From a virus, in the IMG/VR virus record IMGVR_UViG_3300046822_000108, positions 1 to 36,214 of that record: a DNA stretch of 36,214 nucleotides. The stretch is one strand, 5' to 3'. The position numbers and the translations under genes were made by a program. The notes below the pieces were generated by a model. It saw only the letters and a list, made by a program, of their open reading frames with translations. It ran no database searches and was not told where the DNA came from. This document shows positions 8,026 to 21,579 of this stretch, piece after piece. Numbering within the stretch: position 1 is the first letter of the stretch; each line of letters starts with the position of its first letter.

Positions 8026-8261
8026 GCGTCTGATCCAGGAACAGCGCCGTAGGACCTGCACTTGGCATCGTCCTGGGCGTTCTGGATTTCCACTGCGGAT
8101 TTTAGGTTGCCCAGGCTGCGCTGCCTGATCTCGTAACCCTTGGTGCCAGGAAGGCAGTCATCCCAGGCGATAAAGCCGGTCGCGCAATCCATGGGGTGGT
8201 TGGCGCAACCGACCAGCGCGAGCGTCATGAGCAGCAGGTATCGCTTCATTTGAGAATCCAT
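7989..8261 (-). CDS. Small lipoprotein (cargo/moron)
   Basis: Signal peptide with lipobox, MKRYLLLMTLALVG-C. The alternative ATG at 8249 gives 86 aa. Mature part has four more Cys. Located between attP and the tailspike gene. Confidence 0.65.
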   Translation of the reverse strand: MDSQMKRYLLLMTLALVGCANHPMDCATGFIAWDDCLPGTKGYEIRQRSLGNLKSAVEIQNAQDDAKCRSYGAVPGSDAYVNCRVQLDKR

Positions 8262-8413
8262 TCAGGGTTTTTCGGAGTTTGTCACCCAAACGGCGAAGAG
8301 TCACTTGGCGCTGAAGGATCTACCAATACCTGGCACCCCTGCCAACCTCTTGCCGTTCAGGCCTGCGCGCCCTTCCCCGCTATACTCACCTGGTCGACAC
8401 CAAGGAGCGGATC

Positions 8414-8620
8414 ATGACTACTACCAAGCCAGCGCCCACTTGGGCAGACCTGTGGATACTCTCCTCGGACAAGCTCAACTGCACCGAATGCCATGCGCCC
8501 CAGCTCATGAAGTGGCGCGAGTTCGCCTTTGTACATGCGCCAGGCTGTTCCCGCCAAGGCTGGGGCCAATACCCATATCTCGAACTGCGCACAATGCTGC
8601 AGGAAATCAGCGACGAATAG
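8414..8620 (+). CDS. Hypothetical small Cys-containing protein (68 aa)
   Basis: Strong RBS AAGGAG 6 nt before the ATG. Contains CTEC...C. Convergent with the tailspike gene. Confidence 0.55.
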   Translation: MTTTKPAPTWADLWILSSDKLNCTECHAPQLMKWREFAFVHAPGCSRQGWGQYPYLELRTMLQEISDE

Positions 8621-8638
8621 CCATAGCTTGCACTACGT

Positions 8639-10576
8639 TCATGGGTGGCTAGCCACGTACGCATCAAATTTACCGCTCAAGTCTTGAAGCGCTGCAACAA
8701 GCAGAGGGACCAGCTTCGAATGGTCCACAGTCTGCGGCAGGATCGTTTCACCGGTCTTGTGCCACACCTGCCCTTCCTGATCGGAAGTAGGCGCAACCAC
8801 ACCACTTGCCACTAGACGTCCTTCCGCGTCGACAATCGATCCGACATCTTGCATCGCGTCCTTTTCACCGATCACGGCATTCGGGACAACGCGCGATACC
8901 TCGTGCGCCAGAAAGCCATCAACACGCACACCAGGTGCGGCGATCATTTCGAAAGTCTTCGCTTGTAGCCCCTTGATTCGATCCAACGCGCCATCGAGTT
9001 TTAGGACGTTCTGCTTCAAGCGGTAGTCAGAGGTTGTGCCATAAGTGGTAGCGCCAGCACTCACAGATATCGCACCTGAGAAAGTCAGGTCGCGATAGAA
9101 GACAAGAACTTGCCCGTCTGTGGTTCGTCGGCGCAGATAGCCGCACGGGGCGCTTGGGCGTGAGGCATTGATTTCTCCGCCAGCGTTGACGGTGACACCA
9201 TCGGCAGTACCTGACGACGCGATGACCTGCGTGTCGGTGCCCAGGTGTGTCATGTTCGAAAGGTAGCTGCCTGGGCCGTTTGCATATAGATAGCCGCGCC
9301 CGGTGCCGCTCGGATCGGTCACGCAAGAAAGAATCTTGCGGAACGTCTGGGTGGCTCCGTCGAAAGCGTTTATGTTCATCGCGGCGGCGCTAGCGGTATT
9401 GACGGAAATGTTATACGGCTCAGTATTGCTGCCTAGGTATACGCCCCCCCACGTAGTTCGACCATCGATACTCCCAGGCAGTGCTGGAGCAAATGCCGGG
9501 CTGGTCTCAATGATGCCGCCCTTGTGCGCCAGGTAGCGTGCACCCGTAGCTGAGCCGTTGAATGTGACGTTCTTTACGATGATGTTGCCCTGAGCCGCGC
9601 CGGCAAAATAAGAGATGAACGCAGGCGTGCCGGTAACTGTGCACGTAATCACCGAGGTGAAGATCAGACCGAATGAACCAGTGTGCAAATGGCTGTTGCC
9701 ACCACCCGAAACGGTGTAGTCGGCAGTAAGGTAGATGAATGCTCCACCGCCTACGGCGAGATGGGATGACAGAGAAGCGCCATATTCCATTGCGCCAACG
9801 CTCATGAATGCGCCGGATTGCACGGCTACCCCATCACCTCCGGTATTCATTACCTTGAAGCCTCGGACCTCGAAGGCCGCGGACTGCTCCGCATAAAATG
9901 CGCCCTGTACGTCGTTTGCGTTGACGACGCAGCTGGCGGGCGTTGCTACGTTCCCTATAAATGCTACCGTGCCGCCACCAACCCATGGCTTTGCAACCTT
10001 GGCGCCGGCCGTATACGTTCCGTCGCCCACCTGAACAGTCACGGTAAACCCGTTCAGATCAAGCGCGGTTTGGATGTAATTGGCGGCTCGCTGAATGGTC
10101 AGGAAGGCGCCGGCCGCAGTATTCGCTAGCCCAGTGTTGGAGTCGTTGCCGTCCGTGCGCACGTAATAGGTGCGGTTCGCATAAAGCTTCTCGCGAAGGT
10201 GGTCAGCAACTGTTTTCCCCTTAAAGCCTACGAGTGCCGCCCCTTTTGCAGCATCCGTGTTATTGGCCAGGTTAGTCTGCAGGGCTGTTATGGCAGCGCT
10301 CGCGTCAGCTCCGCTATCGGAAATAACCTGATCCCAGATCAAATTGCCATAGGAGTCCTGTAGCACCTGGCGATAGGCTCCGGTACCGTAGATCGAGGCC
10401 TGACCACGTGCATCGAGAATTATGGGGTTTGTGTTAAACGTGGTTTGCCCCACGTCCTGGTAGGTATCTTTCGGCGTGCTGGTCCCCGCCTGGTAATGGA
10501 ATACTTTCCCGCCAATCAGCGGCCTACCATTGGCATCCTCGAACTGCTGTTTGCCGTTGGGCAGTAATTGGGTCAT
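8639..10576 (-). CDS. Tailspike/tail fibre with beta-helix (depolymerase-like) body and C-terminal S74 intramolecular chaperone domain
   Basis: N-terminal adaptor motif LPNGKQQFEDANGRPLIGGKVFHYQAGTSTPKDTY...ILDARGQ. YYVRTDGNDSNTGL...FLTIQRAANYI is typical of right-handed beta-helix enzymes. C-terminal SDYRLKQNV...KLVPLLVAALQDL (8642..9031) matches the S74 domain. Confidence 0.85.
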   Translation of the reverse strand: MTQLLPNGKQQFEDANGRPLIGGKVFHYQAGTSTPKDTYQDVGQTTFNTNPIILDARGQASIYGTGAYRQVLQDSYGNLIWDQVISDSGADASAAITALQTNLANNTDAAKGAALVGFKGKTVADHLREKLYANRTYYVRTDGNDSNTGLANTAAGAFLTIQRAANYIQTALDLNGFTVTVQVGDGTYTAGAKVAKPWVGGGTVAFIGNVATPASCVVNANDVQGAFYAEQSAAFEVRGFKVMNTGGDGVAVQSGAFMSVGAMEYGASLSSHLAVGGGAFIYLTADYTVSGGGNSHLHTGSFGLIFTSVITCTVTGTPAFISYFAGAAQGNIIVKNVTFNGSATGARYLAHKGGIIETSPAFAPALPGSIDGRTTWGGVYLGSNTEPYNISVNTASAAAMNINAFDGATQTFRKILSCVTDPSGTGRGYLYANGPGSYLSNMTHLGTDTQVIASSGTADGVTVNAGGEINASRPSAPCGYLRRRTTDGQVLVFYRDLTFSGAISVSAGATTYGTTSDYRLKQNVLKLDGALDRIKGLQAKTFEMIAAPGVRVDGFLAHEVSRVVPNAVIGEKDAMQDVGSIVDAEGRLVASGVVAPTSDQEGQVWHKTGETILPQTVDHSKLVPLLVAALQDLSGKFDAYVASHP

Positions 10577-10680: not shown

Positions 10681-13194
10681 CTAGCGGTTGCCGCTGAGGC
10701 CTGGCGAACCCGATCCAAGCGCGCTAGCGGGAGCTATCCCGCCACGACGGAGAAGGAGGTCAAGGGCACCCGAATTGACTGATCCCTGTTTCAGGACCTC
10801 GGCGCCGCGGGGGTTTAGCAGGTAATCAATCAATCGGGCCTCGATCTCTGGCCCTTGGGCATTCATGGCGCGGCTGGCAACGCCGGCAGCTTGCTGCGCC
10901 CCAACCGCACCAATCCCTGCCCCCATGCTGCCGCCCAACGCGTAACCGAGTGCCCCGCCCAGTGCGCTCGGGGTTACAGGGGCAACTGAACCGAGCTTGC
11001 CGGGCAGCATCGAGTCAATCAGCTGGTTGGTGGCGAAGTTCTGGAAGGTATTCGAGCCGATCGCCATGCCGCGCGCCGAGTTAGCCTGGCGCTGCAGGTC
11101 GGCATGTAGGTTCTGTAGCATCCCCAGCTGGTCATCGGTGATCGACTTGGCGTCATTGGCACCTGGTTTGGCGCGCAACTTGTCGATTGTGCCAAGCGCC
11201 GATTTGACCTTGGCCAGCGTGATCTTCTGGCTGGTCTGGTCCGTCAGGTTGAGTCCCTGCAGGTATTCCTGGGCGCTGACCGGCTTCGACAGATCGGCGT
11301 AGGTCTTCAGGAACTCCTTAAACCCGGGCGCCGCGTCCTGAATGGCGTCGTCCAGCTTTTCCCGCACTTGGATCAATTCCTTGGAAGCCAACTGCGCGGC
11401 CGAGTTGTCCCTGCCGGCGACGGTGGTGAGCTGGTCGTTGATGCTCTGGCGAATCCCATAGAGCTGATCGACATTCGACTGCAAACCATCCTTGCCAAGA
11501 TCCAGCTTGTCCTTGACCTTGTTCAGTGCCTTGACCACATCGTCACGCTGCCCGGCGCGGCTTTCGAGGATGGTGCCGATCTCGTCCATTACGGGGTTGG
11601 CATTGGCTGGGCGAGCGCCATCGAGTGCCTGTTTGAGGAAGGGCAACGCTTGCTGGTCGCGGGTGGCCATGGCCGCCTGCAGCGTCTCTGGAGTGCCTTT
11701 GATCTGTTGCAGATAGTCCAGGCGTGCGGAGTCGTTGGCCAAGGACCGTTCGGCAAAGGCGTTGGGGGAACGGCTCATCGCAGCACGCTCTAGCGCCGCT
11801 ACACCGGCGTTACCCGTGGCTTGCGCTAGCGTTGGCGTCGATCCTGGTACCAACTCGTCGAAGTTCGCGTTGATGCGGCCGCCAGCGCCAGCCCGGCCAA
11901 GGGCATCATCTGCAGTGCCCCCGAGCAGGTTCTGCGCCATGTTGCCCGGATCCTTAGCGGCCTCGGCTTTAATGGCGTTCTCGGCGATGCTGGCGCGCCC
12001 GGATGCAGTGAACGGTGCTACAGCAGCCTTGGCAGTTCCACCCAGATACTTGGCCATGGTGACACCGCCGGGAATCAAGGCCGCGAGCGCACCGCCGATT
12101 AATGCTTGGTCGCCAGTGTCGAGGCCGGGCTGGCCGCCAGAAAGCAAAGCACCTCCGGCCGCCCCCTGGGCAGCGTTGTACGCAGTCTTAGAGGCCAGGC
12201 CACCCTGGCCGCTCAGGAACTTGCCGGCGCTGGCCAAAGCCTGTGGATTGCCCAAAGCACTACTGAGGCGGCCGCCGACATTCGCTGCGACTGCCTCGGC
12301 CCCCGCTACCGGAACCATTACGCCAGCAGCGCCGCCACCCATTCGGGAAAGGAAACCCTGCACGCCAGCATCTGGATTGCGCGAGTCATAGTCGGCGCGG
12401 CTCTGCGCATTCATAGTCTGCTGCTGAGCGGCAGTAGGCATGTTGATCCCAGCCTTGCTCAATAAACCGGTCAGCCCGCTTTTCTCAGCGCCGGCCGCAA
12501 GCCACTCACTGGGCGCATCAAACGTATCCATAATGCCCCGCCCAAGAGCATTGGCGTTGCTGATGCCTTGAGCGCCTAGCGATGCCAAGCCATCCATGGC
12601 GGCGGTGCCCACACGAGCAGCCAAGCCCTGTTGCTCGGGCTGGGTAGTTGCTGCCGAGATCCGTACTTCATCTGGCGCGGCGGGTGCGGGGCTTGCTACA
12701 GGAGCAGCGGCGGATGCGGCAGGTGCCGCAAAGTCCTGGGCAGCAAAATCGCTTGCCCCTGGCGCAGCAGCAGGCGCGGAGGTGCCGAAATCCTGTGCGG
12801 CGAAATCGTTCTGGCTGGGGGTTGATGCTGCCACTTGTGGCGCTCCGTATTGAGCGGAGACCTTTTGCAGGTAAGCCTGCGTTTTAGGTCCCCAGTTGGC
12901 CTGATCGGTCCCGCCGTGGTACGCCAGCACCGCCTGCTCTGGCGAGCCGTAGCGGCGCAAGTTCTCGTCCAGCAGCTTTGCCACGCCTTCGATCGACTGC
13001 GCGGGGTTGGTGGGATCGATGCCGAGCGCCTTGGCAGTGGCCGGAATCTGCTGGCCAAGACCACTGGCCTTGGTCTCGCCGTTGTAGGCACCTGGGTCCC
13101 CACCGCTTTCGACATGCACCACCGATGCGATCAGCTTGGGGTCAACGTTGTACTTCTGGCCGGCAGCCTGAAAGAGCTGGTCCCATTGGCTCAT
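10681..13194 (-). CDS. Ejection/internal virion protein with N-terminal lytic transglycosylase (SLT) domain
   Basis: 837 aa. KLIASVVHVESGGDPGAYNGETKASGLGQ...AYHGG is an SLT motif with the catalytic Glu. The rest is Ala/Gly/Gln-rich. Occupies the position of P22 gp16. Confidence 0.8.
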   Translation of the reverse strand: MSQWDQLFQAAGQKYNVDPKLIASVVHVESGGDPGAYNGETKASGLGQQIPATAKALGIDPTNPAQSIEGVAKLLDENLRRYGSPEQAVLAYHGGTDQANWGPKTQAYLQKVSAQYGAPQVAASTPSQNDFAAQDFGTSAPAAAPGASDFAAQDFAAPAASAAAPVASPAPAAPDEVRISAATTQPEQQGLAARVGTAAMDGLASLGAQGISNANALGRGIMDTFDAPSEWLAAGAEKSGLTGLLSKAGINMPTAAQQQTMNAQSRADYDSRNPDAGVQGFLSRMGGGAAGVMVPVAGAEAVAANVGGRLSSALGNPQALASAGKFLSGQGGLASKTAYNAAQGAAGGALLSGGQPGLDTGDQALIGGALAALIPGGVTMAKYLGGTAKAAVAPFTASGRASIAENAIKAEAAKDPGNMAQNLLGGTADDALGRAGAGGRINANFDELVPGSTPTLAQATGNAGVAALERAAMSRSPNAFAERSLANDSARLDYLQQIKGTPETLQAAMATRDQQALPFLKQALDGARPANANPVMDEIGTILESRAGQRDDVVKALNKVKDKLDLGKDGLQSNVDQLYGIRQSINDQLTTVAGRDNSAAQLASKELIQVREKLDDAIQDAAPGFKEFLKTYADLSKPVSAQEYLQGLNLTDQTSQKITLAKVKSALGTIDKLRAKPGANDAKSITDDQLGMLQNLHADLQRQANSARGMAIGSNTFQNFATNQLIDSMLPGKLGSVAPVTPSALGGALGYALGGSMGAGIGAVGAQQAAGVASRAMNAQGPEIEARLIDYLLNPRGAEVLKQGSVNSGALDLLLRRGGIAPASALGSGSPGLSGNR

Positions 13195-14684
13195 TGCCCA
13201 ATCCTCTGGATCAGCCCCTGGGCAACGGCTTTGTTGTAGGAGGCGTCAAAGGCCTTCTGCTCGGTAGGCTTGAGGCTGTTGCGCATGGCGACAGCCTTGT
13301 CGCGCGGCATGTCCTGCAGGGTGAACAGGCGCGGATCCACATCCTTGTTCCACTGGCTGGAGAATTTGTTGTACTGCTCCGCAGGAAGCCCGGCAGCCTG
13401 CCAAGCGCTGTTCTTGGCCTGGGTAGCACGCTGGGTAGCGATCAGCACATCGATGATCTGCTCGTTGCCTAGCTTCGAGAGACTACTGTTTGGATTAGCG
13501 GCCACGGCAGAGGCCAGTTTGCTATCGGTACCTTCGCCCAGTTGACCAGCCACCGACTGCGCTAACTGGGTGGAGAACTTCTTGAACTCCTCCAAGCTGG
13601 CCACCTTCTGCGGATCGATGCCGAGTCGCTGAGCAACACCTGGTGCGACCTGCAACGCCAGCGCTTGGGCTTTTCCCTGCCAATCGGCATTCGGGCCGGT
13701 ACTGATATCGCCCAAGGAACTGCGCATATTCTGGAGCTGGTAGATGGCCTGCGGAGCATTGTCGGCTGACTGCTGGAGCGCCAGCGAGGCCTCGGCGGCC
13801 CCCTTGCCAACCACGTCAGCAGCACCGGCGGCGCCCAGCGACGGACCGGCCTGGATACCAGGGGCGCCACCTGTGATTGGGGTAAGTCGACCGCTACCCA
13901 TCGGGCCGCCGCTGGTATCTGGCGTGTAGCCTGGCTGTGCACCCTGACCATTCGCCATTGCTGCGGCCTGGGCCTTGGTTACCATGCGCTGGGTGCCGGT
14001 TTGAGGATCGAAGATCGTGACCATGCTGTTTGCATCGCCGGGCGCCATACTGTTTTGCACCTGGCCGGTAAGGGTAGGCTGCCCAGTGGATGGATCGATG
14101 TTCATGATTTGCTGAGATCCGCCGCTGTTGATTATCTGCGTCTGCGGAAGCATCGACTTCAAACGATCAGAGTTCTGGCTGAATCCGATATATTTTTGCT
14201 TCACCCAGTCACGCAAGGCGCCAGGGTCGGTCGGCATATCAGTCGTAAAGCTGACGGCCTCTTCCGGTGTGTAGAGACCAAGTTTTATACCCTCACTAGC
14301 AACTTTCATTACATTTTGCGGGGTTATGGTTTGCGATCCCAGCAAGCTACCAAAACCTGCTGACAGATTATCTGTGCGCTTTTGTGCCTGCTCGAGCTGA
14401 CCGGTGTCGTACTGAAGCTGGTTATTCTTTTGTTGGAGTATTTGTGCCTGAAACGCTGGCAGATTGTAGGCCGCGTCAGGGTCTTTTGCAGCCATTGACA
14501 GAGCCTTGTTCATATCAGGCTGGCCGGTAGCTGGATCAATAGATTGCTGAAGGATGCGCGATAGTGCCGAGTTCGATTTCTGAGCCTGAATTTGCCCGCG
14601 CAGCTGTGTAACACCCATCATATTTTGAAGAATATTTGGCTGGTTTCCAGCGGCATTAAGCGCGATTGACGAGTCGATTGCCAT
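13191..14684 (-). CDS. Putative ejection/internal virion protein (P22 gp20 position)
   Basis: 497 aa, Gln/Ala/Gly-rich. ATGA coupling to the downstream gene, RBS GAGGAA. Confidence 0.5.
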   Translation of the reverse strand: MAIDSSIALNAAGNQPNILQNMMGVTQLRGQIQAQKSNSALSRILQQSIDPATGQPDMNKALSMAAKDPDAAYNLPAFQAQILQQKNNQLQYDTGQLEQAQKRTDNLSAGFGSLLGSQTITPQNVMKVASEGIKLGLYTPEEAVSFTTDMPTDPGALRDWVKQKYIGFSQNSDRLKSMLPQTQIINSGGSQQIMNIDPSTGQPTLTGQVQNSMAPGDANSMVTIFDPQTGTQRMVTKAQAAAMANGQGAQPGYTPDTSGGPMGSGRLTPITGGAPGIQAGPSLGAAGAADVVGKGAAEASLALQQSADNAPQAIYQLQNMRSSLGDISTGPNADWQGKAQALALQVAPGVAQRLGIDPQKVASLEEFKKFSTQLAQSVAGQLGEGTDSKLASAVAANPNSSLSKLGNEQIIDVLIATQRATQAKNSAWQAAGLPAEQYNKFSSQWNKDVDPRLFTLQDMPRDKAVAMRNSLKPTEQKAFDASYNKAVAQGLIQRIGQ

Positions 14685-14693
14685 GATCGTTCC

Positions 14694-15383
14694 TCACTTG
14701 TAAAGGGCGTTGTAGAGCATGTAGTTGTTAACGCCGCTGGTTACGGCATTCGATGCACCTGTAATCCCGGAAGCCGTAGCATTGGCTGCCTGCGTTAGGT
14801 AGTTGCCGGCGGTGTTCGCCGCCGCCAGGCCAGCCTGCCCGGTCTGCGCCGCAGAGTTTTGGCCAGTGTTCACCAGGTTCTGCAGGTTGCTGACGTTGTT
14901 CGCCGCCACCTGATAGTTGGTGTTGTAGGTGCTCAACGCGTTGTTGTACTGCTGGTTGTAGGTCTGATCGGCCAGGCCTGTGGCATAGGTCGAAAGACCT
15001 TTAGCCTGCGCGCCGGAGAGCCCAAGGCCCTGAGCTGCCAATGAGTTGTTAGTGCTCTTCAGGCCCTGATTGAGGGTGAACTGGTAACCGGGCGTGTTGG
15101 CCAGGTCGCTACCATCGAAGCTGAACTGCTGTTGCAGCGTGGCGTTTGGGTTCTGGGTGACGTTGCCTCCGGCGTCGACGTTGTAGCCCATCGCCGACCA
15201 CAGGGGATTGATCGCCTGCGTGCCGACTGCGGTATACGGGGCAAGGTCCGACCGCATCTGAGCTGCGGCCTCAGATGATTGATCCGCCGCTTTGTTGGCC
15301 GCGTCCGCTTGTTTACTAGCTGCCGAGTTTGATGCCACAGCGCCAACGACCGCGCTTCCGGCTACAGCTGCTGCAATTCCCAT
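14694..15383 (-). CDS. Putative ejection/internal virion protein (P22 gp7 position)
   Basis: Internal ATG at 15383 preceded by GGGAGA. 229 aa, Ala/Asn/Gly/Gln-rich with a hydrophobic N-terminus GIAAAVAGSAVVGAVA. Confidence 0.45.
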   Translation of the reverse strand: MGIAAAVAGSAVVGAVASNSAASKQADAANKAADQSSEAAAQMRSDLAPYTAVGTQAINPLWSAMGYNVDAGGNVTQNPNATLQQQFSFDGSDLANTPGYQFTLNQGLKSTNNSLAAQGLGLSGAQAKGLSTYATGLADQTYNQQYNNALSTYNTNYQVAANNVSNLQNLVNTGQNSAAQTGQAGLAAANTAGNYLTQAANATASGITGASNAVTSGVNNYMLYNALYK

Positions 15384-15384
15384 A

Positions 15385-15840
15385 TCAGTCTCCCAGCCAC
15401 TTTGTGTGGATAGTTTCGATTTCCTCGTACCCTCGACGGGCAAAAAGCCACGCGGCAGGAAAGTGATTTTTGGAGTTTGTGACGAGTCGCTGAACGCCCC
15501 GCCGCCTCAACTCTTTTTCCACAAAATTGAAGAGTAGGTTGCCTGCAGCAGCGCCACGCTCGTCGGGTTTGACGTAAAAAATGTCCTGGATACAGGTCAG
15601 ACACGTGGAGTAATGCAGACCGGGCGCTACGAAGCCGATGAAGTAACCTGCCAGCCGGCCGGCATCACGAAGGGCCACGAATAGAAGCTCTCCAATGGCC
15701 TCCTGGGCTAGATACAGATCCCATCGCGGTGAGAGCGGGACCTTGTCTCTGTTCATAGCCAGCTCTTCGTAATGCAGCGGGATTATTTCTTTCAGCTCGG
15801 CGATATTGGCGGCGAAGGACTCGACATGGGCGGTAATCAT
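15385..15840 (-). CDS. GNAT-family N-acetyltransferase
   Basis: 152 aa from the ATG at 15840 (ATGA overlap with the upstream stop). Motif A is FYVKPDERGAAAGNLLFNFVEKELRRRG; C-terminal LFARRGYEEIE. Confidence 0.7.
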   Translation of the reverse strand: MITAHVESFAANIAELKEIIPLHYEELAMNRDKVPLSPRWDLYLAQEAIGELLFVALRDAGRLAGYFIGFVAPGLHYSTCLTCIQDIFYVKPDERGAAAGNLLFNFVEKELRRRGVQRLVTNSKNHFPAAWLFARRGYEEIETIHTKWLGD

Positions 15841-16406
15841 CGGGCGCACCGGATATCGATGATCAGATGGATACGATCCGTTGCGCTGTTGTTCACCACC
15901 TCGTGGTTCAGCGCATTGTTGAACCACCAGGTTTCGCCAGTGCCCATGTAGACGTGCTCTTCTTCGCAACGAAAATCAACACCAGGAGCGCTTTGCAGCA
16001 CGATGTGGTGGCGCTCGTAATATTCGGCATGCGCTGGTGAATCGGCGTGAGGAAAGATGCAGCCGCCAGGGGCCACTCGATTGATGATCACCCGCCCAAG
16101 CCGCGTGCCGCCAACATAGGACATCAAGGCCATCACCAACGGGCGCGCTTCGGGGAGCGCCGCGTAGGACGGTGTATCGAGGCTTTCATGCTCATCATTG
16201 TTGACGAGGTGTTGCTCGACCTCTTCGGCAGTGGCGACAATGATTCGCTTGGGGAACCGTAGGATGATTGAGTCCACTTGACCGAACGGCCCCTGTGGAT
16301 AATCACGAAGATATGTGTCTTCTCGCCACAGCTCCGGCCTGCGGGCAATCGCTGCCAGAAGCGGCACCACGTCCGTGCCTTGGCCGATCCTCAGGAAGTT
16401 ACGCAT
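15837..16406 (-). CDS. Aspartyl/asparaginyl beta-hydroxylase-like cupin (Fe(II)/2OG oxygenase fold)
   Basis: 189 aa. GGCIFPHADSP (HxD) ... GETWWFNNALNHEVVNNSATDRIHLIIDI gives an HxD...H facial triad, the pattern of the Asp/Arg hydroxylase (LpxO-type) family. Confidence 0.7.
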   Translation of the reverse strand: MRNFLRIGQGTDVVPLLAAIARRPELWREDTYLRDYPQGPFGQVDSIILRFPKRIIVATAEEVEQHLVNNDEHESLDTPSYAALPEARPLVMALMSYVGGTRLGRVIINRVAPGGCIFPHADSPAHAEYYERHHIVLQSAPGVDFRCEEEHVYMGTGETWWFNNALNHEVVNNSATDRIHLIIDIRCAR

Positions 16407-16408
16407 GG

Positions 16409-16747
16409 TCAGTTGTCCTGTACGAATTCAACGCCGCTGACGTTGAGGGTTGTGCCGAGGCCAAGGGCGTACAGCTGCGTGCCAGGCTCCAGCTTGTGGT
16501 TGATGGCGTCGTTCAGCGATCCCACTTGGCCCGCCGAGAGCACACGCGACGCGATCAATTGCGGGTTACCGGCAGAGCCGCCGGCGGCCACCTTGTAAAG
16601 GCTCACCGTTACCGGCGCGGCCGTAGGGTTGAAGGCCGTCACGGCATGGATGGCCGAATAGGTCAGCAGCGGAGCGACATAAAGCGCAGTCGAGGCCGCA
16701 GCCGTCAGCGTCTGGGCTGCGACCATCTCGCGATATTTGGTTGTCAT
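16409..16747 (-). CDS. Hypothetical virion-module protein (112 aa)
   Basis: ATGA coupling with the upstream gene. High GC3. Confidence 0.5.
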   Translation of the reverse strand: MTTKYREMVAAQTLTAAASTALYVAPLLTYSAIHAVTAFNPTAAPVTVSLYKVAAGGSAGNPQLIASRVLSAGQVGSLNDAINHKLEPGTQLYALGLGTTLNVSGVEFVQDN

Positions 16748-17634
16748 GGTTTCTCCAGCAGGATGGTGGCGTTCTTGGCGGTTGCGATGTTGCTAGCGTT
16801 CGCCTGGCTCCAGTTCCAGCCAATGCTCAGCGTGTTGGCTACGGTGGTATTGATCGTTGCGGCAGTGCTACCAACGATCGGGCCGCCGCTCAGTGCATTG
16901 AGGTTCGATGTCATCAGGGATGAAATCTGTGATGCGGCAGCAGCTCCCGCTGCCCGGATTGTCATGCCGGCGGTGTAGATGATCCCGGTGTTCGTCTGAC
17001 CCAGGGCTGGTAGCGTGAAGGTCTGGGTCATGACCTTGGTCGCTCCGACCTTGATCCAAACCGACAGCGTTCCCGATGTGGCCGCCGAGGAGATCAGGCC
17101 GTACAGGCGAAAGCTCAGCGATGTGCCGGCCACCATGGAGTTCGCTGGCATGACCAGCGAAAGAATCGCGCCGTCAGCCGTGCTGTTCTGGGTAACCACG
17201 TCGGCAATCAGCGACGAAGGACCTACAGCGGGTAGAACGACGGCATCGAGCCGCGCCTTATCTGTTGCGGACATGAACCCCGCCAGCAATTGGGTGGCCG
17301 CCTGGTGAAGCTCTGCATCGTTCTGGTTCCCGTGGGACGGAATGCGGTCCAACGGGTTTTCGCGCTGCCAGATCAGGCGCGGGGCCAAGCCCTCAGGCAA
17401 TTCCTGTCGTGGGGCCAGTTTGGGTACCCGGGCGTTTCCCTGGGCGTCCAGGCTGGTGATTTCTTTGGCGAATAGCGCGATCAGCACAGCAATCTCACCT
17501 AGATCCACCCCCGCCGTGCCGCCCGTACGCGCCAGCAAAGTGGTAAAGAATCGCCACCAGACCTCGCTGATGTTGCCGTTTCCATCAATGATTGGGGTCC
17601 CATAAGCGGGAATGTTGTTAGCGATATCGCTCAT
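16744..17634 (-). CDS. Tail needle/fibre-like protein
   Basis: ATG at 17634 (ATGA overlap). N-terminus PIIDGNGNISEVWWRFFTTLL and AATQLLAGFMSATDKARLD resemble fibre motifs. Occupies the P22 gp26 slot after the gp10-like gene. Confidence 0.5.
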   Translation of the reverse strand: MSDIANNIPAYGTPIIDGNGNISEVWWRFFTTLLARTGGTAGVDLGEIAVLIALFAKEITSLDAQGNARVPKLAPRQELPEGLAPRLIWQRENPLDRIPSHGNQNDAELHQAATQLLAGFMSATDKARLDAVVLPAVGPSSLIADVVTQNSTADGAILSLVMPANSMVAGTSLSFRLYGLISSAATSGTLSVWIKVGATKVMTQTFTLPALGQTNTGIIYTAGMTIRAAGAAAASQISSLMTSNLNALSGGPIVGSTAATINTTVANTLSIGWNWSQANASNIATAKNATILLEKP

Positions 17635-19052
17635 CTGGCACCTGGCGCGGCATCGATATAAGCCCCGTTCAACGCGATCTGTGCAGCAACAGACCACGAG
17701 ATTTCGAACACTCGATCACGCGCCATGCCCAAGCGGTGCCAACGCGCAATGCCTTGGTATTGCCCACGAAACCCGGTGGTGGTGGATATCGACGTGGACC
17801 ACGACAGCCCCTTGCTATCGCTCCAGCGAAGGCGAATTTCAGGTGCGGCGGCAGGCTCAAGGCTTGATGGCTGACCTGCCTCCATATCCGCCTGGAACAT
17901 CAGGTAGCTGACGCGGTTCCCGTCGTCCACCATGTGGGGAAAGGATCGAATCCGGCGGATCTCTTCGCCGGCGTCGGTGTATTCATCAAGGCGCAGCTCA
18001 TAAAGGCGCCCGTCCTGGTAATCGCCAACCACATGGCGCTTGTTCCAGAAGGCGAAACAGTTAGAGCGATGGCGTTCAAGCTTCCCACTGGCATTGAGAA
18101 AACCCAGCTCGTGCCATTCGTTGGTGGCGATGTCGAAAACCCACGTCTTGTTGGCGGTCGGGAAATTCAACACGTACCAGACATGGCCGCTCATTTGATG
18201 GATATAGCCAATGGCGTCATCGATCCTGGAGTAGCCCTGAATTTCGTTCTCGATCGCAAAGGTGCTGATGCGCTCGCGGTCGTAGTTCATGGTACGCAGC
18301 ACAATGCATTCGCCCTGCGGGGAGCGACTCACCCAATACAGCGAGCCATCCGACTCGCACAGGCTGTCAGCGGCAGCGCAGCCGAACTGGATAAAGGCTC
18401 CGGGAATGCGGGAGAAAGTGAAGTCCGTGCCGCCGGTGTTGGTCCATATCTCAGTGGTCCATTCGCCGAACAGGAAGAGGTTGCGACGGGTAACCCCAAC
18501 GCACACCAGCTTGTCGGCCGACCCGGTCTTGGATGCAAAGTCCAGGGCATCGAAATCAACCTGGTTCAGCAGGCTGATGTACCACTGATTCGTGCCTGGG
18601 CGGTTCATCACTAGATAGCCGTCGACCTCGGCAAGACGCGTCGAACCATAGAAGGCATCGTTGGTCACGGGGGCAAACGAAAGGTCACTCAGCGTGATCG
18701 TGTAGCCCGCAGTGGTGCCATCGACGATCAGGATCTGGTTACCGTTGTCGATCATGTAGCACTGGCCAGACTGCGATGCGGTCGCGCCCAATGTGGCAGT
18801 GGTGAGGTCGGCGTTGATGAGCAGCACAGAAGTCCCGCAAACGCCGAAAAGCCGCCCATCGGTTGCGGTATATAGGCAGCGCCACGGCCCTTTTGGAGCC
18901 GTGAGTAGCAGGCGCAGTCCCGGCGTCTGGTAGTGAGTGGATGGGAAAGCCTCGCCTTGGGGGTTTTTCTCCACATACAGGTTCACGCATCGCTGCGCGG
19001 CTGCAATGGCGCTGCGCGACTGGTACGCGCCACCGAGTAATGGAACCTTCAT
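17631..19052 (-). CDS. P22 gp10-like tail hub / packaged-DNA stabilisation protein
   Basis: 473 aa from the ATG at 19052 (P22 gp10 is 472 aa). MKVPLLGGAYQSRSAIAAAQRCVNLYVE and FLFGEWTTEIWTNTGG resemble gp10-family blocks. Synteny after the gp4-like gene. Confidence 0.6.
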   Translation of the reverse strand: MKVPLLGGAYQSRSAIAAAQRCVNLYVEKNPQGEAFPSTHYQTPGLRLLLTAPKGPWRCLYTATDGRLFGVCGTSVLLINADLTTATLGATASQSGQCYMIDNGNQILIVDGTTAGYTITLSDLSFAPVTNDAFYGSTRLAEVDGYLVMNRPGTNQWYISLLNQVDFDALDFASKTGSADKLVCVGVTRRNLFLFGEWTTEIWTNTGGTDFTFSRIPGAFIQFGCAAADSLCESDGSLYWVSRSPQGECIVLRTMNYDRERISTFAIENEIQGYSRIDDAIGYIHQMSGHVWYVLNFPTANKTWVFDIATNEWHELGFLNASGKLERHRSNCFAFWNKRHVVGDYQDGRLYELRLDEYTDAGEEIRRIRSFPHMVDDGNRVSYLMFQADMEAGQPSSLEPAAAPEIRLRWSDSKGLSWSTSISTTTGFRGQYQGIARWHRLGMARDRVFEISWSVAAQIALNGAYIDAAPGAR

Positions 19053-19053
19053 G

Positions 19054-19755
19054 TCAGTTATCCGAATACGGGTTGTAGTTGGCCCGACCCACAACTGCCG
19101 CCGGCATATACAGCTTGCCCACCTGGGTGTTGGCCTGGCGCAGCGTGCCCAGGGCGGCGGTGGCAAGGGCAATGGTCACGGGGTCGACCGGGCGCCCGTA
19201 CATCGAATAGAGCCGGCCGGCCAGGTTGTACATCAGGGCTTCCATGTACTCCGCCGGCAGGTTGATATCGTCGTAGGGGGTCGCGAACTGGGTTAGCGGC
19301 GCCAGCATCAGCAGGTGCAGCTCATAGCCGACAGTCGCGATGGGCCAGACGTGGAGCACGCCCAGCGGGTATTGAGGGTCGTAATAGACCAAGGAAGGCA
19401 TGGAACTGATGGTCTTGGTCGAGACCCTGCCCCAATCCTTCTGGGACATCAGCAGCTCCAGGTCGTAATCGATCGGCACCGGGGCTAGCTGGCGGCAGTA
19501 AGCACCCATAACGCGCGGCGGCCGGGCCGTGTTGAAGTCGCCGCCGGCGCCCACGGTATAGGTCGCGGCGCCCGTAGACACGCACGCCACGTCGAAGATC
19601 TGGTGCACCAGGTTCTTCTTCACCGACCACTGCGCGAGCATCATGTTGAGGATCGCGAATGCATCCGCGATATCCTCAGCAGCAGCGGTCTGACCGACCC
19701 CGAGCACTCCTACCTGCTTGAGTGCGAGGTTGATAATTTCAACTGGGGTCGTCAT
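19054..19755 (-). CDS. P22 gp4-like head-to-tail adaptor
   Basis: N-terminus EIINLALKQVGVLGVGQTAAAEDIADAFAILNMMLAQW parallels P22 gp4 DLVRAALRKLGV...DAVDDLEAMMAEW. Confidence 0.6.
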   Translation of the reverse strand: MTTPVEIINLALKQVGVLGVGQTAAAEDIADAFAILNMMLAQWSVKKNLVHQIFDVACVSTGAATYTVGAGGDFNTARPPRVMGAYCRQLAPVPIDYDLELLMSQKDWGRVSTKTISSMPSLVYYDPQYPLGVLHVWPIATVGYELHLLMLAPLTQFATPYDDINLPAEYMEALMYNLAGRLYSMYGRPVDPVTIALATAALGTLRQANTQVGKLYMPAAVVGRANYNPYSDN

Positions 19756-19761
19756 CAGGGG

Positions 19762-20295
19762 TTACTCCTGACCGCCAGTGCCCAGGTCGGTGTCCTTCGG
19801 CATGGCTGCCGGGGTCGACGACTTGGCAGCGACGAAGGCGTCGATTGCCGCTTGGATGGTCTTGGAGCCCGAGGCGTGATGCACCTCAACCCCCATTTCC
19901 TTGGCTTGGGCGAGGAGCGCCTTGCGCGCTTCTTCGCTGTCGACCATGACCAGGTTGTCTTGCGGGCCGACCGGACGGCCGACTTCGATTTGTGGAATGG
20001 CGCCGATCAGGCCGCGGTTTCCCTTGGCAGTGAAGGCCTTGAAGAACAGGGCTTTCACCTCGTCCGACTCTTCGGTCAGATCCTCGGCCGCAAGAAACTC
20101 CTGGAAAGCCTGTTCATCGGTGACCACCGGCACATCGGCGGCCGGCGCCACGGCGTTGACCGCGGGATCGACCTCGGTGGTGCCGTTCTTGTGCGGTTCA
20201 TCCTTCCAGCCGCTGCCCAATGCCGATTCTTCATCAGCGTTTTGCACGATGGTGGCCGGGCTGGTCTTGTGAAACTTCCACTTTGGGAATTCCAT
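19762..20295 (-). CDS. Hypothetical acidic protein downstream of coat (possible head accessory)
   Basis: ATG at 20295 preceded by AAGAGGA. 177 aa. Confidence 0.5.
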   Translation of the reverse strand: MEFPKWKFHKTSPATIVQNADEESALGSGWKDEPHKNGTTEVDPAVNAVAPAADVPVVTDEQAFQEFLAAEDLTEESDEVKALFFKAFTAKGNRGLIGAIPQIEVGRPVGPQDNLVMVDSEEARKALLAQAKEMGVEVHHASGSKTIQAAIDAFVAAKSSTPAAMPKDTDLGTGGQE

Positions 20296-20316
20296 GGTTT
20301 CGTCCTCTTGGATCAA

Positions 20317-20339
20317 CAAAAAAGGCCCCTAAGGGCCTT
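20317..20339 (-). terminator. Rho-independent terminator/attenuator after the coat gene
   Basis: Minus strand reads AAGGCCC-ttag-GGGCCTT followed by TTTTGTTG. Confidence 0.65.
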
Positions 20340-20355
20340 GAGTTGGTGGTGCGAG

Positions 20356-21579
20356 TTACATCACGTCTGCGACAGCAACGCCCCACTCTGGGCGGATGTT
20401 GGCCCAGCCATACAGCACGTCGAAACGGCTGATGAAGTTGTCGTTGGTGATGTCGTAGCCGGTGATAAAGCGCATCGACACGCCGTCGAAGGTCTCGCGG
20501 TAAGCTTCGTGAACGCCTTTAGGCAGCTCCAGGTCGGCGGTGGCCAGGGTGATCGCCATCGGATCCATGGCGAAGTTCTTGCGGAACGTGATGCCAGCAC
20601 CACCGACCAGGGTGATCAGCGCGCCAGCTGCAGGAGACGCGGTGACGGTGCCGTATGCCACGGTACCTGGGGTGATCGCCGGGTAGATCGGGATTGCAGT
20701 TGCGCCGGCGGCCACGTTGGCGGTCACCACGAACTGGCGCAGCTCGCCGGTGGACTGCTTGGTCACCGGATTCACGCCGAATACGCCAGCAATGACGATC
20801 ACGTCGCCCTTGTTGAAAGTGCCAGTGATCGCGGCGGTGGTCAGGGCCGAACCGGTTTGGCCAGCACCAGCAACCGCGCCGGCGCTGTAGGTACCGTTGG
20901 TGTGCTTGATGACGGTCTGATCGACGCCCCAATCCAGGCCCAGGGTATCCATGCCCATTTCGCCGGTCTTGTATTGCCCGCTGACCTTGTCGCTGGAGTT
21001 GAACAGGCCTTTGAGGCTGTCGACTGTGCGCGCCTGGGTTCGCGGATCAAGGATGGCCTTGCGGTTGCCCTTGGAGTTGACGCGAGGCGTTGCCGTCATA
21101 TCCAGCAGTGCACCGGCATCCAACCAGGTGCTGGAAGTTGGGGTAACGATGGTACCCGAGCTGTCGACGGTGTTGCGGCCCTGGAACGTCAGGTTACTGA
21201 ACGCATCCACCGACTGCATCACGTTGGTGGCGATGGTACCGGCCAGAGCGTTCATGGCCGGGAGCAAGCAACGGGTGCTGAAGTCGTCCAGAGAGAGCGC
21301 ACGCTCAGCGGAACTGAACGAAAGGTCAACGCCCTGCTGGGTGCCGACAGCCAATGGCACGCTACGCTCGATGGTGTCCTGCGGCGTCGCTACCTTACCG
21401 GTACGCACGGTGTAATCGTTCGGCAGACGGATGCGCAGGGTGTCGCCAATCTTCGCGCCTTTCTGGGCGAAGCTGTCGTCGTACTGCGTGTCCACGTTGC
21501 GCAGGAACAGGTTGGTGTTGCGGAAGAGGCGCAATGCCTCCCGAGTGATCATGCTGGGGGTAAGAAGGGCGTTTGCCAT
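20356..21579 (-). CDS. Major capsid protein, P22 coat (gp5)-like
   Basis: 407 aa, RBS AAGGAAA. C-terminus RFDVLYGWANIRPEWGVAV parallels P22 CRIALWYGVNATRPEAIGV. Lies between the scaffold and adaptor genes. Confidence 0.8.
   Translation of the reverse strand: MANALLTPSMITREALRLFRNTNLFLRNVDTQYDDSFAQKGAKIGDTLRIRLPNDYTVRTGKVATPQDTIERSVPLAVGTQQGVDLSFSSAERALSLDDFSTRCLLPAMNALAGTIATNVMQSVDAFSNLTFQGRNTVDSSGTIVTPTSSTWLDAGALLDMTATPRVNSKGNRKAILDPRTQARTVDSLKGLFNSSDKVSGQYKTGEMGMDTLGLDWGVDQTVIKHTNGTYSAGAVAGAGQTGSALTTAAITGTFNKGDVIVIAGVFGVNPVTKQSTGELRQFVVTANVAAGATAIPIYPAITPGTVAYGTVTASPAAGALITLVGGAGITFRKNFAMDPMAITLATADLELPKGVHEAYRETFDGVSMRFITGYDITNDNFISRFDVLYGWANIRPEWGVAVADVM

What the first reader, a model, noticed from the sequence alone, without database searches (positions are those of the whole stretch)
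15385..16406. Enzyme pair (Asp/Asn-hydroxylase-like cupin oxygenase plus GNAT acetyltransferase) inserted in the middle of the virion/ejection operon
**Position.** Two translationally coupled genes (ATGA overlap) with enzyme signatures sit between the needle/fibre genes and the ejection proteins. P22-like phages normally have only structural genes there.

**The two enzymes.**
- 15837..16406 has the cupin HxD...H iron triad in the context GGCIFPHAD ... WWFNNALNHEVVNNSATDRIHLIIDI. This is typical of the aspartyl/asparaginyl beta-hydroxylase / LpxO family.
- 15385..15840 has the GNAT acetyl-CoA motif (ERGAAAGNLLFNFVEKELRRRG).

**Possible roles (inference).**
- Both are expressed from the late operon together with proteins that are injected into the host.
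- They could post-translationally modify virion or ejection proteins by hydroxylation or acetylation.
- They could be packaged and injected to modify host targets.
- They could alter envelope lipid or glycan, since LpxO-type enzymes hydroxylate lipid A.

I am not aware of a described function for such a pair in a podophage structural module.
Basis: partly seen in the sequence, partly recalled or inferred. Interest (0 to 1): 0.7.

Follow-up and report, generated by a model that had tools for sequence, protein, structure and literature searches.

The report
Paired hydroxylase and acetyltransferase beside phage ejection genes
A P22-like phage carries an inseparable hydroxylase-acetyltransferase gene pair immediately before its DNA-ejection protein genes, in the slot where phage P22 has its poorly understood gene 14, which turns out to be an acetyltransferase-fold protein too.

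Summary
On the minus strand, 15837-16406 encodes a 189-aa Fe(II)/2-oxoglutarate dioxygenase (PF05118; the H120/D122/H168 iron ligands and R178 are invariant). 15385-15840 encodes a 151-aa GNAT acetyltransferase. The two genes share an ATGA overlap and sit inside the late operon of a P22-like phage.

The interpretation needs correcting. The slot before the first ejection-protein gene is not purely structural in P22-like phages. P22 has gene 14 there (151 aa, DUF2824, annotated "virion stability factor"), and I show that DUF2824 is a GNAT-superfamily family. A close relative, Pseudomonas phage PAE2, has a gene-14-type gene where this window has the hydroxylase plus GNAT.

The pair always travels together:
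- 109 of 110 hydroxylase-seeded loci have the GNAT directly downstream.
- 79 of 80 GNAT-seeded loci have the hydroxylase directly upstream.

It occurs in at least 409 viral contigs and in prophages of 34 bacterial species. It nearly always sits directly upstream of a gp7-like ejection protein gene.

Both proteins are soluble, so an LpxO-like lipid A role is unlikely. The substrate is unknown. My best guess is late-expressed modification linked to ejection-protein or virion assembly; a small-molecule substrate is a serious rival. I rate this a new variant of a known slot, of moderate interest.

The parts
15837..16406 (-). HYD: a 189-aa soluble Fe(II)/2-oxoglutarate dioxygenase of the Asp/Arg-hydroxylase family (PF05118). 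It consists of a minimal double-stranded beta-helix core only.
   Evidence: PF05118 at E 5e-15. Best PDB sequence hit is L-proline cis-4-hydroxylase 4p7w at E 3e-8, with HxD, H and R aligned. H120, D122, H168 and R178 (full-length numbering) are invariant in alignments A1 and A3. The AF2 model has pLDDT 87.9; its top fold hit is 4p7w at TM 0.70. No transmembrane segment.
15385..15840 (-). GNAT: a 151-aa GCN5-related N-acetyltransferase. It shares an ATGA overlap with HYD and occupies the P22 'gene 14' slot.
   Evidence: PF13508 and PF00583 above their cut-offs. phrog_1249. R95 and G100 of the RGAAAG acetyl-CoA loop are invariant. The AF2 model has pLDDT 86.9 and hits phage and cellular GNATs. 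Weak profile similarity to the gp14/DUF2824 family, E 3.6e-4 to 6.9e-4.
14694..15383 (-). gp7-like first ejection protein (229 aa counted from the ATG at 15383). It starts 1 nt after the GNAT stop codon.
   Evidence: phrog_598 'DNA ejection' at 1.8e-27. Junction sequence TGATATG. The gene downstream of the pair forms one homologous cluster in 95 of 101 loci.
13191..14684 (-). Second ejection-protein slot (the position of gp20 in P22), 497 aa.
   Evidence: Assigned by position and by conserved homologues downstream of the gp7-like gene in related loci. No PHROG hit.
10681..13194 (-). Third ejection-protein slot (the position of gp16 in P22), 837 aa, with an N-terminal lytic transglycosylase domain.
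   Evidence: phrog_13449 'transglycosylase' at 7e-30 over residues 3-115.
16409..16747 (-). p112: a 112-aa protein of unknown function immediately upstream of HYD. It is a variable neighbour and not part of the conserved cassette.
   Evidence: phrog_20100 (unknown function) at 8.8e-5. The gene upstream of HYD falls into 30 different clusters across loci.
16744..17697 (-). p317: an unassigned protein in the slot that holds the needle gene (gp26) in P22. Its true start is probably the ATG at 17634.
   Evidence: No PHROG or Pfam hit. Position after the gp10-like tail hub gene.

Best explanation
SHOWN.
- HYD and GNAT form an obligate, translationally coupled two-enzyme cassette: a soluble Fe(II)/2-oxoglutarate dioxygenase followed by an acyl-CoA-dependent GNAT transferase.
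- The cassette is transcribed as part of the late morphogenesis operon of a P22-like phage.
- It sits directly upstream of the first ejection-protein gene.
- This is the slot that holds gene 14 in P22 and in Pseudomonas phage PAE2. Gene 14 encodes a DUF2824 protein, a diverged GNAT-fold protein annotated as virion stability or head assembly factor.

INFERRED.
- The cassette is a functional alternative to gene 14.
- It acts late in infection, while procapsids are loaded with ejection proteins.
- It covalently modifies a component of the ejection/virion apparatus. The dioxygenase would hydroxylate a side chain, and the GNAT would acetylate an amine, either an N-terminus or a lysine, on the same or a partner substrate.
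- This would tune the stability of the packaged particle or the release and refolding of the ejection proteins at the next infection.
- Because the two enzymes are never found apart, they most likely act on one substrate or one pathway.
For: Family and catalytic residues:
- HYD: PF05118 at 5e-15. H120, D122, H168 and R178 are invariant down to homologues of 27% identity. The fold matches solved 2OG oxygenases.
- GNAT: Pfam hits above cut-off, invariant R95 and G100, and fold matches to solved GNATs.

Operon structure:
- Overlaps or 1-2 nt spacers link p317, p112, HYD, GNAT and the gp7-like gene.
- No promoter-like site was found in 13000-20500, and no terminator-like site flanks the cassette; of two weak stem-loop matches inside p112 and one inside HYD, none is followed by a clean T run, and the total (7) equals the shuffle expectation.

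Obligate pairing:
- 109 of 110 HYD-seeded loci have the GNAT immediately downstream, 87 of them with a 4-nt overlap.
- 79 of 80 GNAT-seeded loci have HYD immediately upstream. In the 80th, an extra ORF lies between them.
- The pair is also kept together in 36 of 36 DC33-like phages, which have a different genome layout.

Linkage to the ejection module:
- The downstream gene forms one gp7-like cluster in 95 of 101 loci, whereas the upstream gene falls into 30 clusters.
- In the divergent Caballeronia prophage L088, the pair is followed by phrog_4287 'DNA ejection protein'.
- A distant HYD without a GNAT (L003/L200) is still followed directly by phrog_21132 'DNA ejection'.

Gene-14 slot:
- P22 gene 14 is 151 aa and lies between genes 26 and 7. 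It matches PF11039.
- All 48 members of the extended DUF2824 family match PF11039. Of these, 10, 8 and 2 members also match Acetyltransf_4, Acetyltransf_3 and Acetyltransf_1 respectively, with best E-values of 5e-6 to 7e-5.
- PAE2_12 belongs to DUF2824 (hhalign 99.35%, E 6e-21). It precedes a gp7-like gene that is 57% identical to the window's.
- A distant DUF2824 member is also directly upstream of a PF25688 P22_gp7 gene.
Against: - No substrate has been identified.
- HYD is far more conserved (mean pairwise identity 67%) than the gp7-like protein (30%). HYD identity does not co-vary with gp7-like identity (Spearman 0.04). This fits a universal substrate better than a fast-evolving one.
- The best-conserved gp7-like motif (NTPGYQF) is also present in PAE2, which lacks HYD, and is absent from some HYD-carrying loci.
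- In DC33-like phages the pair lies between the terminase and portal genes, not next to ejection genes.
- The nearest solved relatives of HYD hydroxylate free amino acids.
- Homology between the window GNAT and gp14 is only marginal (hhalign probability 27-37%; not significant against the shallow alignments).
- PAE2 shows that a closely similar gp7-like protein can exist without the hydroxylase.
Confidence: 0.4

Rival explanations
1. Small-molecule enzymes. The pair would hydroxylate and N-acetylate a free metabolite late in infection, for example an amino acid, a polyamine or another amine. This would condition the cytoplasm or the capsid interior, or remove or produce a compound. Its position next to the ejection genes would then reflect operon hitch-hiking only.
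For: - The best sequence and fold matches of HYD are free-amino-acid hydroxylases: L-proline cis-4-hydroxylase 4p7w at E 3e-8 and TM 0.70, and proline 3-hydroxylase 1e5r.
- GNAT fold hits include aminoglycoside, polyamine and glucosamine-6-phosphate acetyltransferases.
- HYD is much more conserved than any neighbouring virion protein and does not co-vary with the ejection protein (identities).
- The pair keeps together in a different genomic position in DC33-like phages.
Against: - HYD is only the 189-aa core. It lacks the roughly 100-residue extra domain and lid of the proline hydroxylases (TM score normalised to the target is only 0.49).
- The cassette lies strictly inside morphogenesis operons and is not found in early or metabolic modules.
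- The slot is shared with gene 14, which is annotated as a virion stability or head assembly factor.
- GNAT fold hits equally include protein N-terminal acetyltransferases of the RimI type.
Confidence: 0.3
2. Injected effectors. HYD and/or GNAT would be packaged with the ejection proteins and delivered into the next host. There they would modify a host target, for host takeover or anti-defence.
For: - The pair is co-expressed and translationally coupled with the ejection-protein genes.
- It is consistently adjacent to them in P22-like lineages.
- High conservation across phages of different hosts would suit a conserved host target.
Against: - There is no evidence of packaging.
- The annotations seen for P22 gp14 are 'virion stability factor' and 'head assembly protein'. 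From my own recollection of the P22 literature, not verified here, gp14 is not a virion component.
- DC33-like phages place the pair away from the ejection genes.
- Neither protein resembles any model in PADLOC-DB, although that library covers defence systems, not anti-defence proteins.
Confidence: 0.15
3. Envelope or lipid A modification of the LpxO type, as a lysogenic-conversion function.
For: LpxO and related lipid hydroxylases belong to the same Pfam family, PF05118 (established knowledge). P22-like phages often carry surface-conversion genes.
Against: - Neither protein has a transmembrane segment or signal-like region (maximum 19-residue hydropathy 1.35 and 1.22).
- The genes have no promoter of their own and lie in the late operon, so they should be silent in a lysogen.
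- The nearest relatives are soluble enzymes.
Confidence: 0.03
4. Catalytically dead relics that now serve only as scaffolds or chaperones.
For: P22 gp14 has a degenerate acetyl-CoA loop (RGFSKEIG) and does not reach the GNAT Pfam models itself. The slot can therefore apparently tolerate loss of canonical motifs.
Against: - In the window's families the iron triad, the 2OG-binding Arg and the GNAT loop residues are invariant across hundreds of sequences.
- HYD is the best-conserved gene of the neighbourhood.
Confidence: 0.05

Closest known systems
Salmonella phage P22 gene 14 product (gp14, PF11039 DUF2824; annotated 'virion stability factor' or 'head assembly protein')
   Same: - Same slot, directly upstream of the first ejection-protein gene and after the tail needle/hub genes.
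- Same length, 151 aa.
- GNAT-superfamily fold, shown here through extended family members that hit the Acetyltransf_1, _3 and _4 models.
- The slot is interchangeable: PAE2 has a DUF2824 gene where the window has HYD plus GNAT.
   Different: - No significant pairwise similarity, and only marginal profile similarity (E about 4e-4 to 7e-4).
- The window GNAT does not match PF11039.
- It keeps a near-canonical acetyl-CoA loop.
- It is always preceded by a dioxygenase, which P22 lacks.
L-proline cis-4-hydroxylase and proline 3-hydroxylase (PDB 4p7w, 1e5r), Fe(II)/2OG oxygenases of the PF05118-related group
   Same: - Best sequence match (E 3e-8) and best fold match (TM 0.70).
- HxD...H triad and the Arg of the R-[IL]-H-L motif align.
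   Different: - HYD has 189 aa against 280-290 aa and lacks the additional domain.
- Identity is 18-23%.
- The substrate is unknown.
- The genomic context is phage morphogenesis, not metabolism.
Human AspH and bacterial LpxO (name-giving PF05118 members)
   Same: Same Pfam family and the same double-stranded beta-helix core.
   Different: - No TPR domain and no EGF-type substrate context (AspH).
- No membrane anchor (LpxO).
- AspH matches are weaker than the proline hydroxylase matches (E 0.02-0.7 by sequence).
Small phage GNATs (phrog_1249; for example the Vibrio phage VpV262 N-acetyltransferase) and RimI-type N-terminal acetyltransferases
   Same: Fold and size match: BFVD top hits at TM 0.78-0.79, and PDB 7n1l RimI at TM 0.67.
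   Different: - Identity is 12-24%.
- The N-terminal motif HYEELA-N-DKVPL-P and the LHYSTCLTC motif (H76, C80 and D86 invariant; C83 in at least 90% of sequences) are specific to this family.
- Those GNATs have no fixed dioxygenase partner.

Membership tests
PF05118 Asp/Arg-hydroxylase-type Fe(II)/2OG dioxygenase | Profile match above the curated threshold | tested here: met
   56.1 bits against a cut-off of 22.6, E 5e-15.
PF05118 Asp/Arg-hydroxylase-type Fe(II)/2OG dioxygenase | HxD...H facial triad for Fe(II) and a basic residue for the 2OG C5 carboxylate | tested here: met
   H120, D122, H168 and R178 are invariant in A1 and A3, including homologues of 27-32% identity. They align to the corresponding residues of 4p7w and 1e5r.
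PF05118 Asp/Arg-hydroxylase-type Fe(II)/2OG dioxygenase | Double-stranded beta-helix fold | tested here: met
   AF2 model with pLDDT 87.9. Foldseek hits 4p7w at E 3e-11 and TM 0.70, then AspH, P3H and other 2OG oxygenases.
PF05118 Asp/Arg-hydroxylase-type Fe(II)/2OG dioxygenase | 2OG-dependent hydroxylase activity | not testable with these tools
   Needs an enzyme assay.
AspH proper (protein Asp/Asn beta-hydroxylase) | TPR domain plus oxygenase domain acting on EGF-like domains | tested here: not met
   HYD is 189 aa and covers only the oxygenase core. TM score normalised to AspH is 0.25. No other Pfam domain was found.
LpxO-type lipid hydroxylase | Membrane anchoring | tested here: not met
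   No hydrophobic segment: maximum 19-residue Kyte-Doolittle score is 1.35.
GNAT (GCN5-related N-acetyltransferase) superfamily | Profile match above the curated threshold | tested here: met
   PF13508 at 28.5 bits (cut-off 27) and PF00583 at 25.6 bits (cut-off 20.7). The same domains are precomputed on most family members.
GNAT (GCN5-related N-acetyltransferase) superfamily | Acetyl-CoA pyrophosphate-binding loop R/Q-x-x-G-x-G/A after strand beta-4 | tested here: met
   The loop is R95-G-A-A-A-G100, with Ala in place of the central Gly. R95 and G100 are invariant in A2. It aligns with RGKGLG of 3fyn.
GNAT (GCN5-related N-acetyltransferase) superfamily | GNAT fold | tested here: met
   AF2 model with pLDDT 86.9. 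TM 0.6-0.8 to phage and cellular GNATs. DSSP assigns little secondary structure to the C-terminal third of the model (one helix at 130-135, no strands after residue 90).
P22 gp14 / DUF2824 (PF11039) | Match to the PF11039 profile | tested here: not met
   The window GNAT has no PF11039 hit at E up to 1. P22 gp14 scores 179 bits.
P22 gp14 / DUF2824 (PF11039) | A gene of about 150 aa directly upstream of the gp7-type ejection protein gene | tested here: met
   The window gene is 151 aa, with its stop codon 1 nt before the gp7-like start. P22 gene 14 is 151 aa with gene 7 following. The distant member P0354 shows the same arrangement.
P22 gp14 / DUF2824 (PF11039) | Detectable homology by profile-profile comparison | tested here: inconclusive
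   hhalign against the extended family A6 gives E 6.9e-4 with 26.6% probability (A2 as query) and E 3.6e-4 with 36.9% probability (window GNAT alone), in the expected GNAT register. It is not significant against the shallow alignments.
P22-type ejection (E) protein module | The first E protein belongs to the gp7 family | tested here: inconclusive
   The window protein matches phrog_598 'DNA ejection' at 1.8e-27 but not PF25688 P22_gp7. It is 23% identical to P22 gp7 in alignment A7.

The most novel reading that the evidence does not exclude
The gene directly upstream of the ejection-protein genes in P22-like phages would be, in general, an acyl-CoA-dependent modification enzyme: gp14/DUF2824 in P22, and HYD plus GNAT here. 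Its job would be to modify the ejection proteins, or another packaged component, covalently. The hydroxylase-GNAT cassette would perform a two-step hydroxylation and acetylation. This would be the first enzymatic maturation pathway for podophage ejection proteins. It would also give P22 gene 14 a function; I found none described in the literature searched.
Probability: 0.2. Interest if true: 0.75.

Novelty: new variant of a known kind. Interest (0 to 1): 0.5.

Why it matters
How ejection proteins are loaded into procapsids, kept soluble in the head, and refolded into a trans-envelope channel is still poorly understood (my assessment; compare the review PMC8954989).

P22 gene 14 is annotated only as a 'virion stability factor' or 'head assembly protein', and I found no mechanism for it in the literature I could search. 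Two results here give it a concrete and testable biochemical hypothesis, namely acyl-CoA-dependent modification:
- The gene-14 slot holds a GNAT-fold protein across P22-like phages.
- A large and widespread lineage fills that slot with a canonical GNAT fused in operon to a strictly conserved 2OG dioxygenase.

The pair is also a clean marker cassette. It occurs in at least 409 viral contigs and in prophages of Pseudomonas, Burkholderiales, Xanthomonadales and Acinetobacter. An isolated phage, PfAn1, is available for genetics.

Tried and rejected
- Direct BLASTP of the window GNAT against P22 gp14 found nothing.
- hhalign of the shallow family alignments (A2 against A4, and locally enlarged versions) was not significant. 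Only after extending the gp14 family with the all-representatives HMMER search did a marginal match and the Pfam GNAT hits appear.
- The BFVD fold search with the GNAT model did not list P22 gp14 among the 50 rows shown.
- The gp14 profile against PDB sequences gave mostly an artefact from designed repeat proteins (Cake/Scone). The best real hit was the GNAT PseH at E 0.1.
- A search for a conserved hydroxylation target in gp7-like proteins failed. The only strongly conserved motif (NTPGYQF, P98) is also present in PAE2, which lacks HYD, and is absent from some HYD-carrying loci.
- The mirror-tree correlations (HYD-GNAT 0.44, GNAT-E1 0.45, HYD-E1 0.04) are explained just as well by physical adjacency and mosaic recombination, so I do not use them as functional evidence.
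- PADLOC gave no hits.
- Literature searches for the pair, for PfAn1, for DUF2824 and for P22 gene 14 function returned nothing informative. The classic P22 papers were not held.
- I rejected a DNA-hypermodification role without a test. The genes lie in the morphogenesis module rather than the replication module, and they belong to neither the TET/JBP family nor any known thymidine-hypermodification family.
Full report
**1. What is there**

The window is a P22-like temperate phage genome read on the minus strand. In order of transcription it encodes:
- endolysin, spanin, small and large terminase;
- portal, scaffold, major capsid protein;
- a gp4-like adaptor (19054-19755) and a gp10-like tail hub (17631-19172);
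- two unassigned proteins, p317 (16744-17697) and p112 (16409-16747);
- the two genes of the finding;
- a gp7-like protein (14694-15383; phrog_598 'DNA ejection', 1.8e-27);
- a 497-aa protein in the gp20 slot, and an 837-aa protein in the gp16 slot with an N-terminal lytic transglycosylase domain;
- a tail fibre/spike (8639-10576) and an integrase (6112-7398).

The quoted motifs are present in the translations.

The genes are joined very tightly:
- p317/p112: ATGA overlap.
- p112/HYD: 2-nt spacer.
- HYD/GNAT: ATGA overlap.
- GNAT/gp7-like: 1-nt spacer.

No promoter-like site lies anywhere in 13000-20500, and no terminator-like site flanks the cassette. Seven weak terminator-like matches were found, no more than in shuffled sequence (mean 6.8). 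Three lie inside the block (two in p112, one in HYD), but none is followed by a clean T run. The only convincing hairpin follows the capsid gene. The pair is therefore an integral part of the late operon and not an independently expressed 'moron'.

**2. The two enzymes**

HYD (189 aa):
- It matches PF05118 at E 5e-15.
- Its best solved relative by sequence is L-proline cis-4-hydroxylase 4p7w (E 3e-8), with HxD, the distal His and the R-I-H-L arginine aligned. Proline 3-hydroxylase and AspH follow.
- In alignments that include homologues of 27-32% identity, H120, D122, H168 and R178 (full-length numbering) are invariant.
- The AF2 model (pLDDT 87.9) matches 4p7w at TM 0.70, but covers only about half of that larger enzyme (TM normalised to the target 0.49). 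HYD is thus a minimal oxygenase core.

GNAT (151 aa):
- It passes the PF13508 and PF00583 thresholds.
- It has a near-canonical acetyl-CoA loop, R95-G-A-A-A-G100, with R95 and G100 invariant.
- It folds as a GNAT (pLDDT 86.9) and matches phage GNATs, RimI-type, aminoglycoside and polyamine acetyltransferases without discriminating among them.

Neither protein has a hydrophobic segment, and neither resembles a PADLOC defence model.

**3. The pair is an obligate and widespread cassette**

- HYD has at least 1543 homologues and the GNAT at least 948, in a 5.8-billion-protein collection. Many lie on contigs of 35-42 kb, the size of a phage genome.
- HYD relatives occur in 409 IMG/VR stretches.
- They also occur in genomes of 34 GTDB species. 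Most are Burkholderiales (Burkholderia, Paraburkholderia, Caballeronia, Ralstonia, Massilia, Janthinobacterium, Achromobacter, Variovorax). Others are Xanthomonadales and Acinetobacter.
- Pseudomonas homologues are named.
- Of 110 HYD-seeded loci with enough downstream DNA, 109 have the GNAT immediately downstream, 87 of them with a 4-nt overlap.
- Reciprocally, 79 of 80 GNAT-seeded loci have HYD immediately upstream. In the 80th a 153-aa ORF lies between them; by eye its sequence resembles a homing endonuclease, which was not tested.
- Only three records in the GenBank phage collection (INPHARED) carry HYD: two isolated phages, Pseudomonas phage PfAn1 (same layout as the window) and Limnohabitans phage DC33, plus one uncultured Caudoviricetes genome.

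**4. What the pair is linked to**

- The gene downstream of the pair forms a single homologous cluster, the gp7-like family, in 95 of 101 loci. The upstream gene falls into 30 clusters.
- In the divergent Caballeronia prophage L088 the GNAT is only 36% identical and no other virion protein is recognisable by BLAST. The pair is still followed by phrog_4287 'DNA ejection protein'.
- A distant HYD (27% identity) that lacks a GNAT is still followed directly by phrog_21132 'DNA ejection'.
- The DC33-like freshwater lineage is the exception. There the pair lies between the large terminase and the portal-type gene. It stays together in 36 of 36 loci, even where the terminase is replaced.

The common denominator is a morphogenesis operon. 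In P22-like genomes specifically, it is the head of the ejection-protein gene block.

**5. The gene-14 connection**

P22 itself has gene 14 between needle gene 26 and ejection gene 7. It is 151 aa and is annotated 'virion stability factor' or 'head assembly protein'. It matches PF11039 DUF2824.

Pairwise comparison and shallow profile comparisons with the window GNAT are negative. I therefore extended the gp14 family with an exhaustive HMMER search, which found 80 representatives at E up to 1e-3.
- All 48 full-length members match PF11039.
- 10 of them also match Acetyltransf_4, 8 match Acetyltransf_3 and 2 match Acetyltransf_1, with best E-values of 7e-6, 5e-6 and 7e-5.

DUF2824 is thus a diverged GNAT-superfamily family.

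Against this broader profile the window GNAT family aligns over 122 columns in the expected register (beta-4/RG loop, VQ-x-hydrophobic strand, G-[FY]-x-x-[IV]-x-T-I). The score is only E 6.9e-4 at 26.6% probability, or E 3.6e-4 for the single sequence. I take this as a shared fold. Specific orthology is not established.

Two further points support an interchangeable slot:
- Pseudomonas phage PAE2 has a gp7-like protein 57% identical to the window's and lacks HYD. Immediately upstream of that gene it has a 135-aa protein that is a clear DUF2824 member (hhalign 99.35%, E 6e-21).
- A distant DUF2824 member also sits directly upstream of a PF25688 P22_gp7 gene.

The same slot therefore holds either a gp14-type protein or HYD plus a canonical GNAT.

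**6. Mechanism**

Shown:
- There are two soluble enzymes with intact catalytic signatures.
- They are always together.
- They are expressed with the virion genes.
- In P22-like phages they lead the ejection-protein genes and occupy the gene-14 slot.

Inferred (confidence about 0.4): they act late in infection on a component of the ejection/virion apparatus as a two-step modification, hydroxylation plus N-acetylation. This would be functionally analogous to whatever gp14 does for virion stability.

Against a gp7-like substrate:
- HYD is far more conserved (mean pairwise identity 67%) than the GNAT (54%) or the gp7-like protein (30%).
- HYD does not co-vary with the gp7-like protein.
- No candidate target motif is specific to HYD-carrying phages.
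- PAE2 manages without HYD.
- The nearest solved relatives act on free amino acids.

A small-molecule substrate is therefore a serious rival (about 0.3). Injection as effectors is possible but unsupported (about 0.15). An LpxO-like envelope role (about 0.03) and dead relics (about 0.05) are unlikely.

**7. Novelty and verdict**

The enzyme families are known, and a GNAT-fold gene in this slot is, in hindsight, a regular feature of P22-like phages. What is new:
- the obligate dioxygenase-GNAT cassette and its wide distribution;
- its interchangeability with gene 14;
- the resulting biochemical hypothesis for gene 14.

The searchable literature has only a passing 'auxiliary metabolic gene' mention for DC33 ORF8 (PMC12195039). 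I classify the finding as a new variant of a known kind and score its interest at about 0.5. The most novel reading still open is enzymatic maturation of ejection proteins. I give it a probability of about 0.2, and it would deserve an interest of about 0.75 if true.

Noticed in passing
L024 3737-4198 (same contig as L176): A 153-aa ORF lies exactly between HYD and the GNAT. It overlaps the HYD stop codon and ends at the GNAT start. By eye its sequence (YNSWRGMRERC...GVTICPEW...IERQKSDQGYSPANC) looks like an HNH/AP2-type homing endonuclease. It is the only case where the pair is split by a gene. L087 and L105 have spacers of about 200-235 nt, which I did not examine.
   Followed up: partly
L119 5751-6659 (Pseudomonas phage PAE2 gene PAE2_13): The gp7-like ejection protein of PAE2 carries a C-terminal Peptidase_S74 'chaperone of endosialidase' domain (E 5e-11, residues 240-288). 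This is an intramolecular chaperone domain usually found on tail fibres and spikes, which is unusual for an internal ejection protein.
   Followed up: no
window 10681-13194 (minus strand): The protein in the gp16 slot (837 aa) has an N-terminal lytic transglycosylase domain (phrog_13449, 7e-30). The peptidoglycan-cutting activity is therefore built into an ejection protein here, which P22 gp16 is not known to have.
   Followed up: no
window 20322-20339 (minus strand): There is a strong GC-rich hairpin followed by a T run immediately after the major capsid gene. It is in the same position as the stem-loop annotated after P22 gene 5 (BK000583 6102-6119). It is probably an attenuator that sets the capsid-to-tail protein ratio.
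   Followed up: no
L002 (PQ492659 Limnohabitans phage DC33): The GenBank taxonomy line places DC33 in Inoviridae (filamentous ssDNA phages). However, the genome is 39 kb and encodes a large terminase and a portal-type protein (phrog_2, phrog_332). The record's classification looks wrong.
   Followed up: partly
L090, L094, L116 (genome contigs): Contigs carrying this proteobacterial P22-like prophage module are filed in MAGs labelled Patescibacteria, Paceibacterota and Thermoplasmata archaeon. This is probably binning contamination, or free phage contigs binned with unrelated genomes.
   Followed up: no
L106 (Dyella jiangningensis CP007444, 1068711-1081304): The HYD, GNAT, gp4-like, gp10-like and capsid homologues are all broken into short fragments. 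This looks like a decaying prophage in a complete genome.
   Followed up: no
window GNAT residues 73-86 (within 15385-15840): There is a family-specific motif P-G-L-H-Y-S-T-C-L-T-C-x-x-D. H76, C80 and D86 are invariant, and C83 is present in at least 90% of sequences. It is not a standard GNAT feature. It could be a metal site or part of the acceptor pocket.
   Followed up: no
window 7446-8638: Between the tail fibre/spike gene and the integrase lie a 131-aa ORF with no PHROG or PADLOC hit and about 800 nt without a long ORF. In P22-like phages this is the usual place for lysogenic-conversion or superinfection-exclusion genes.
   Followed up: no
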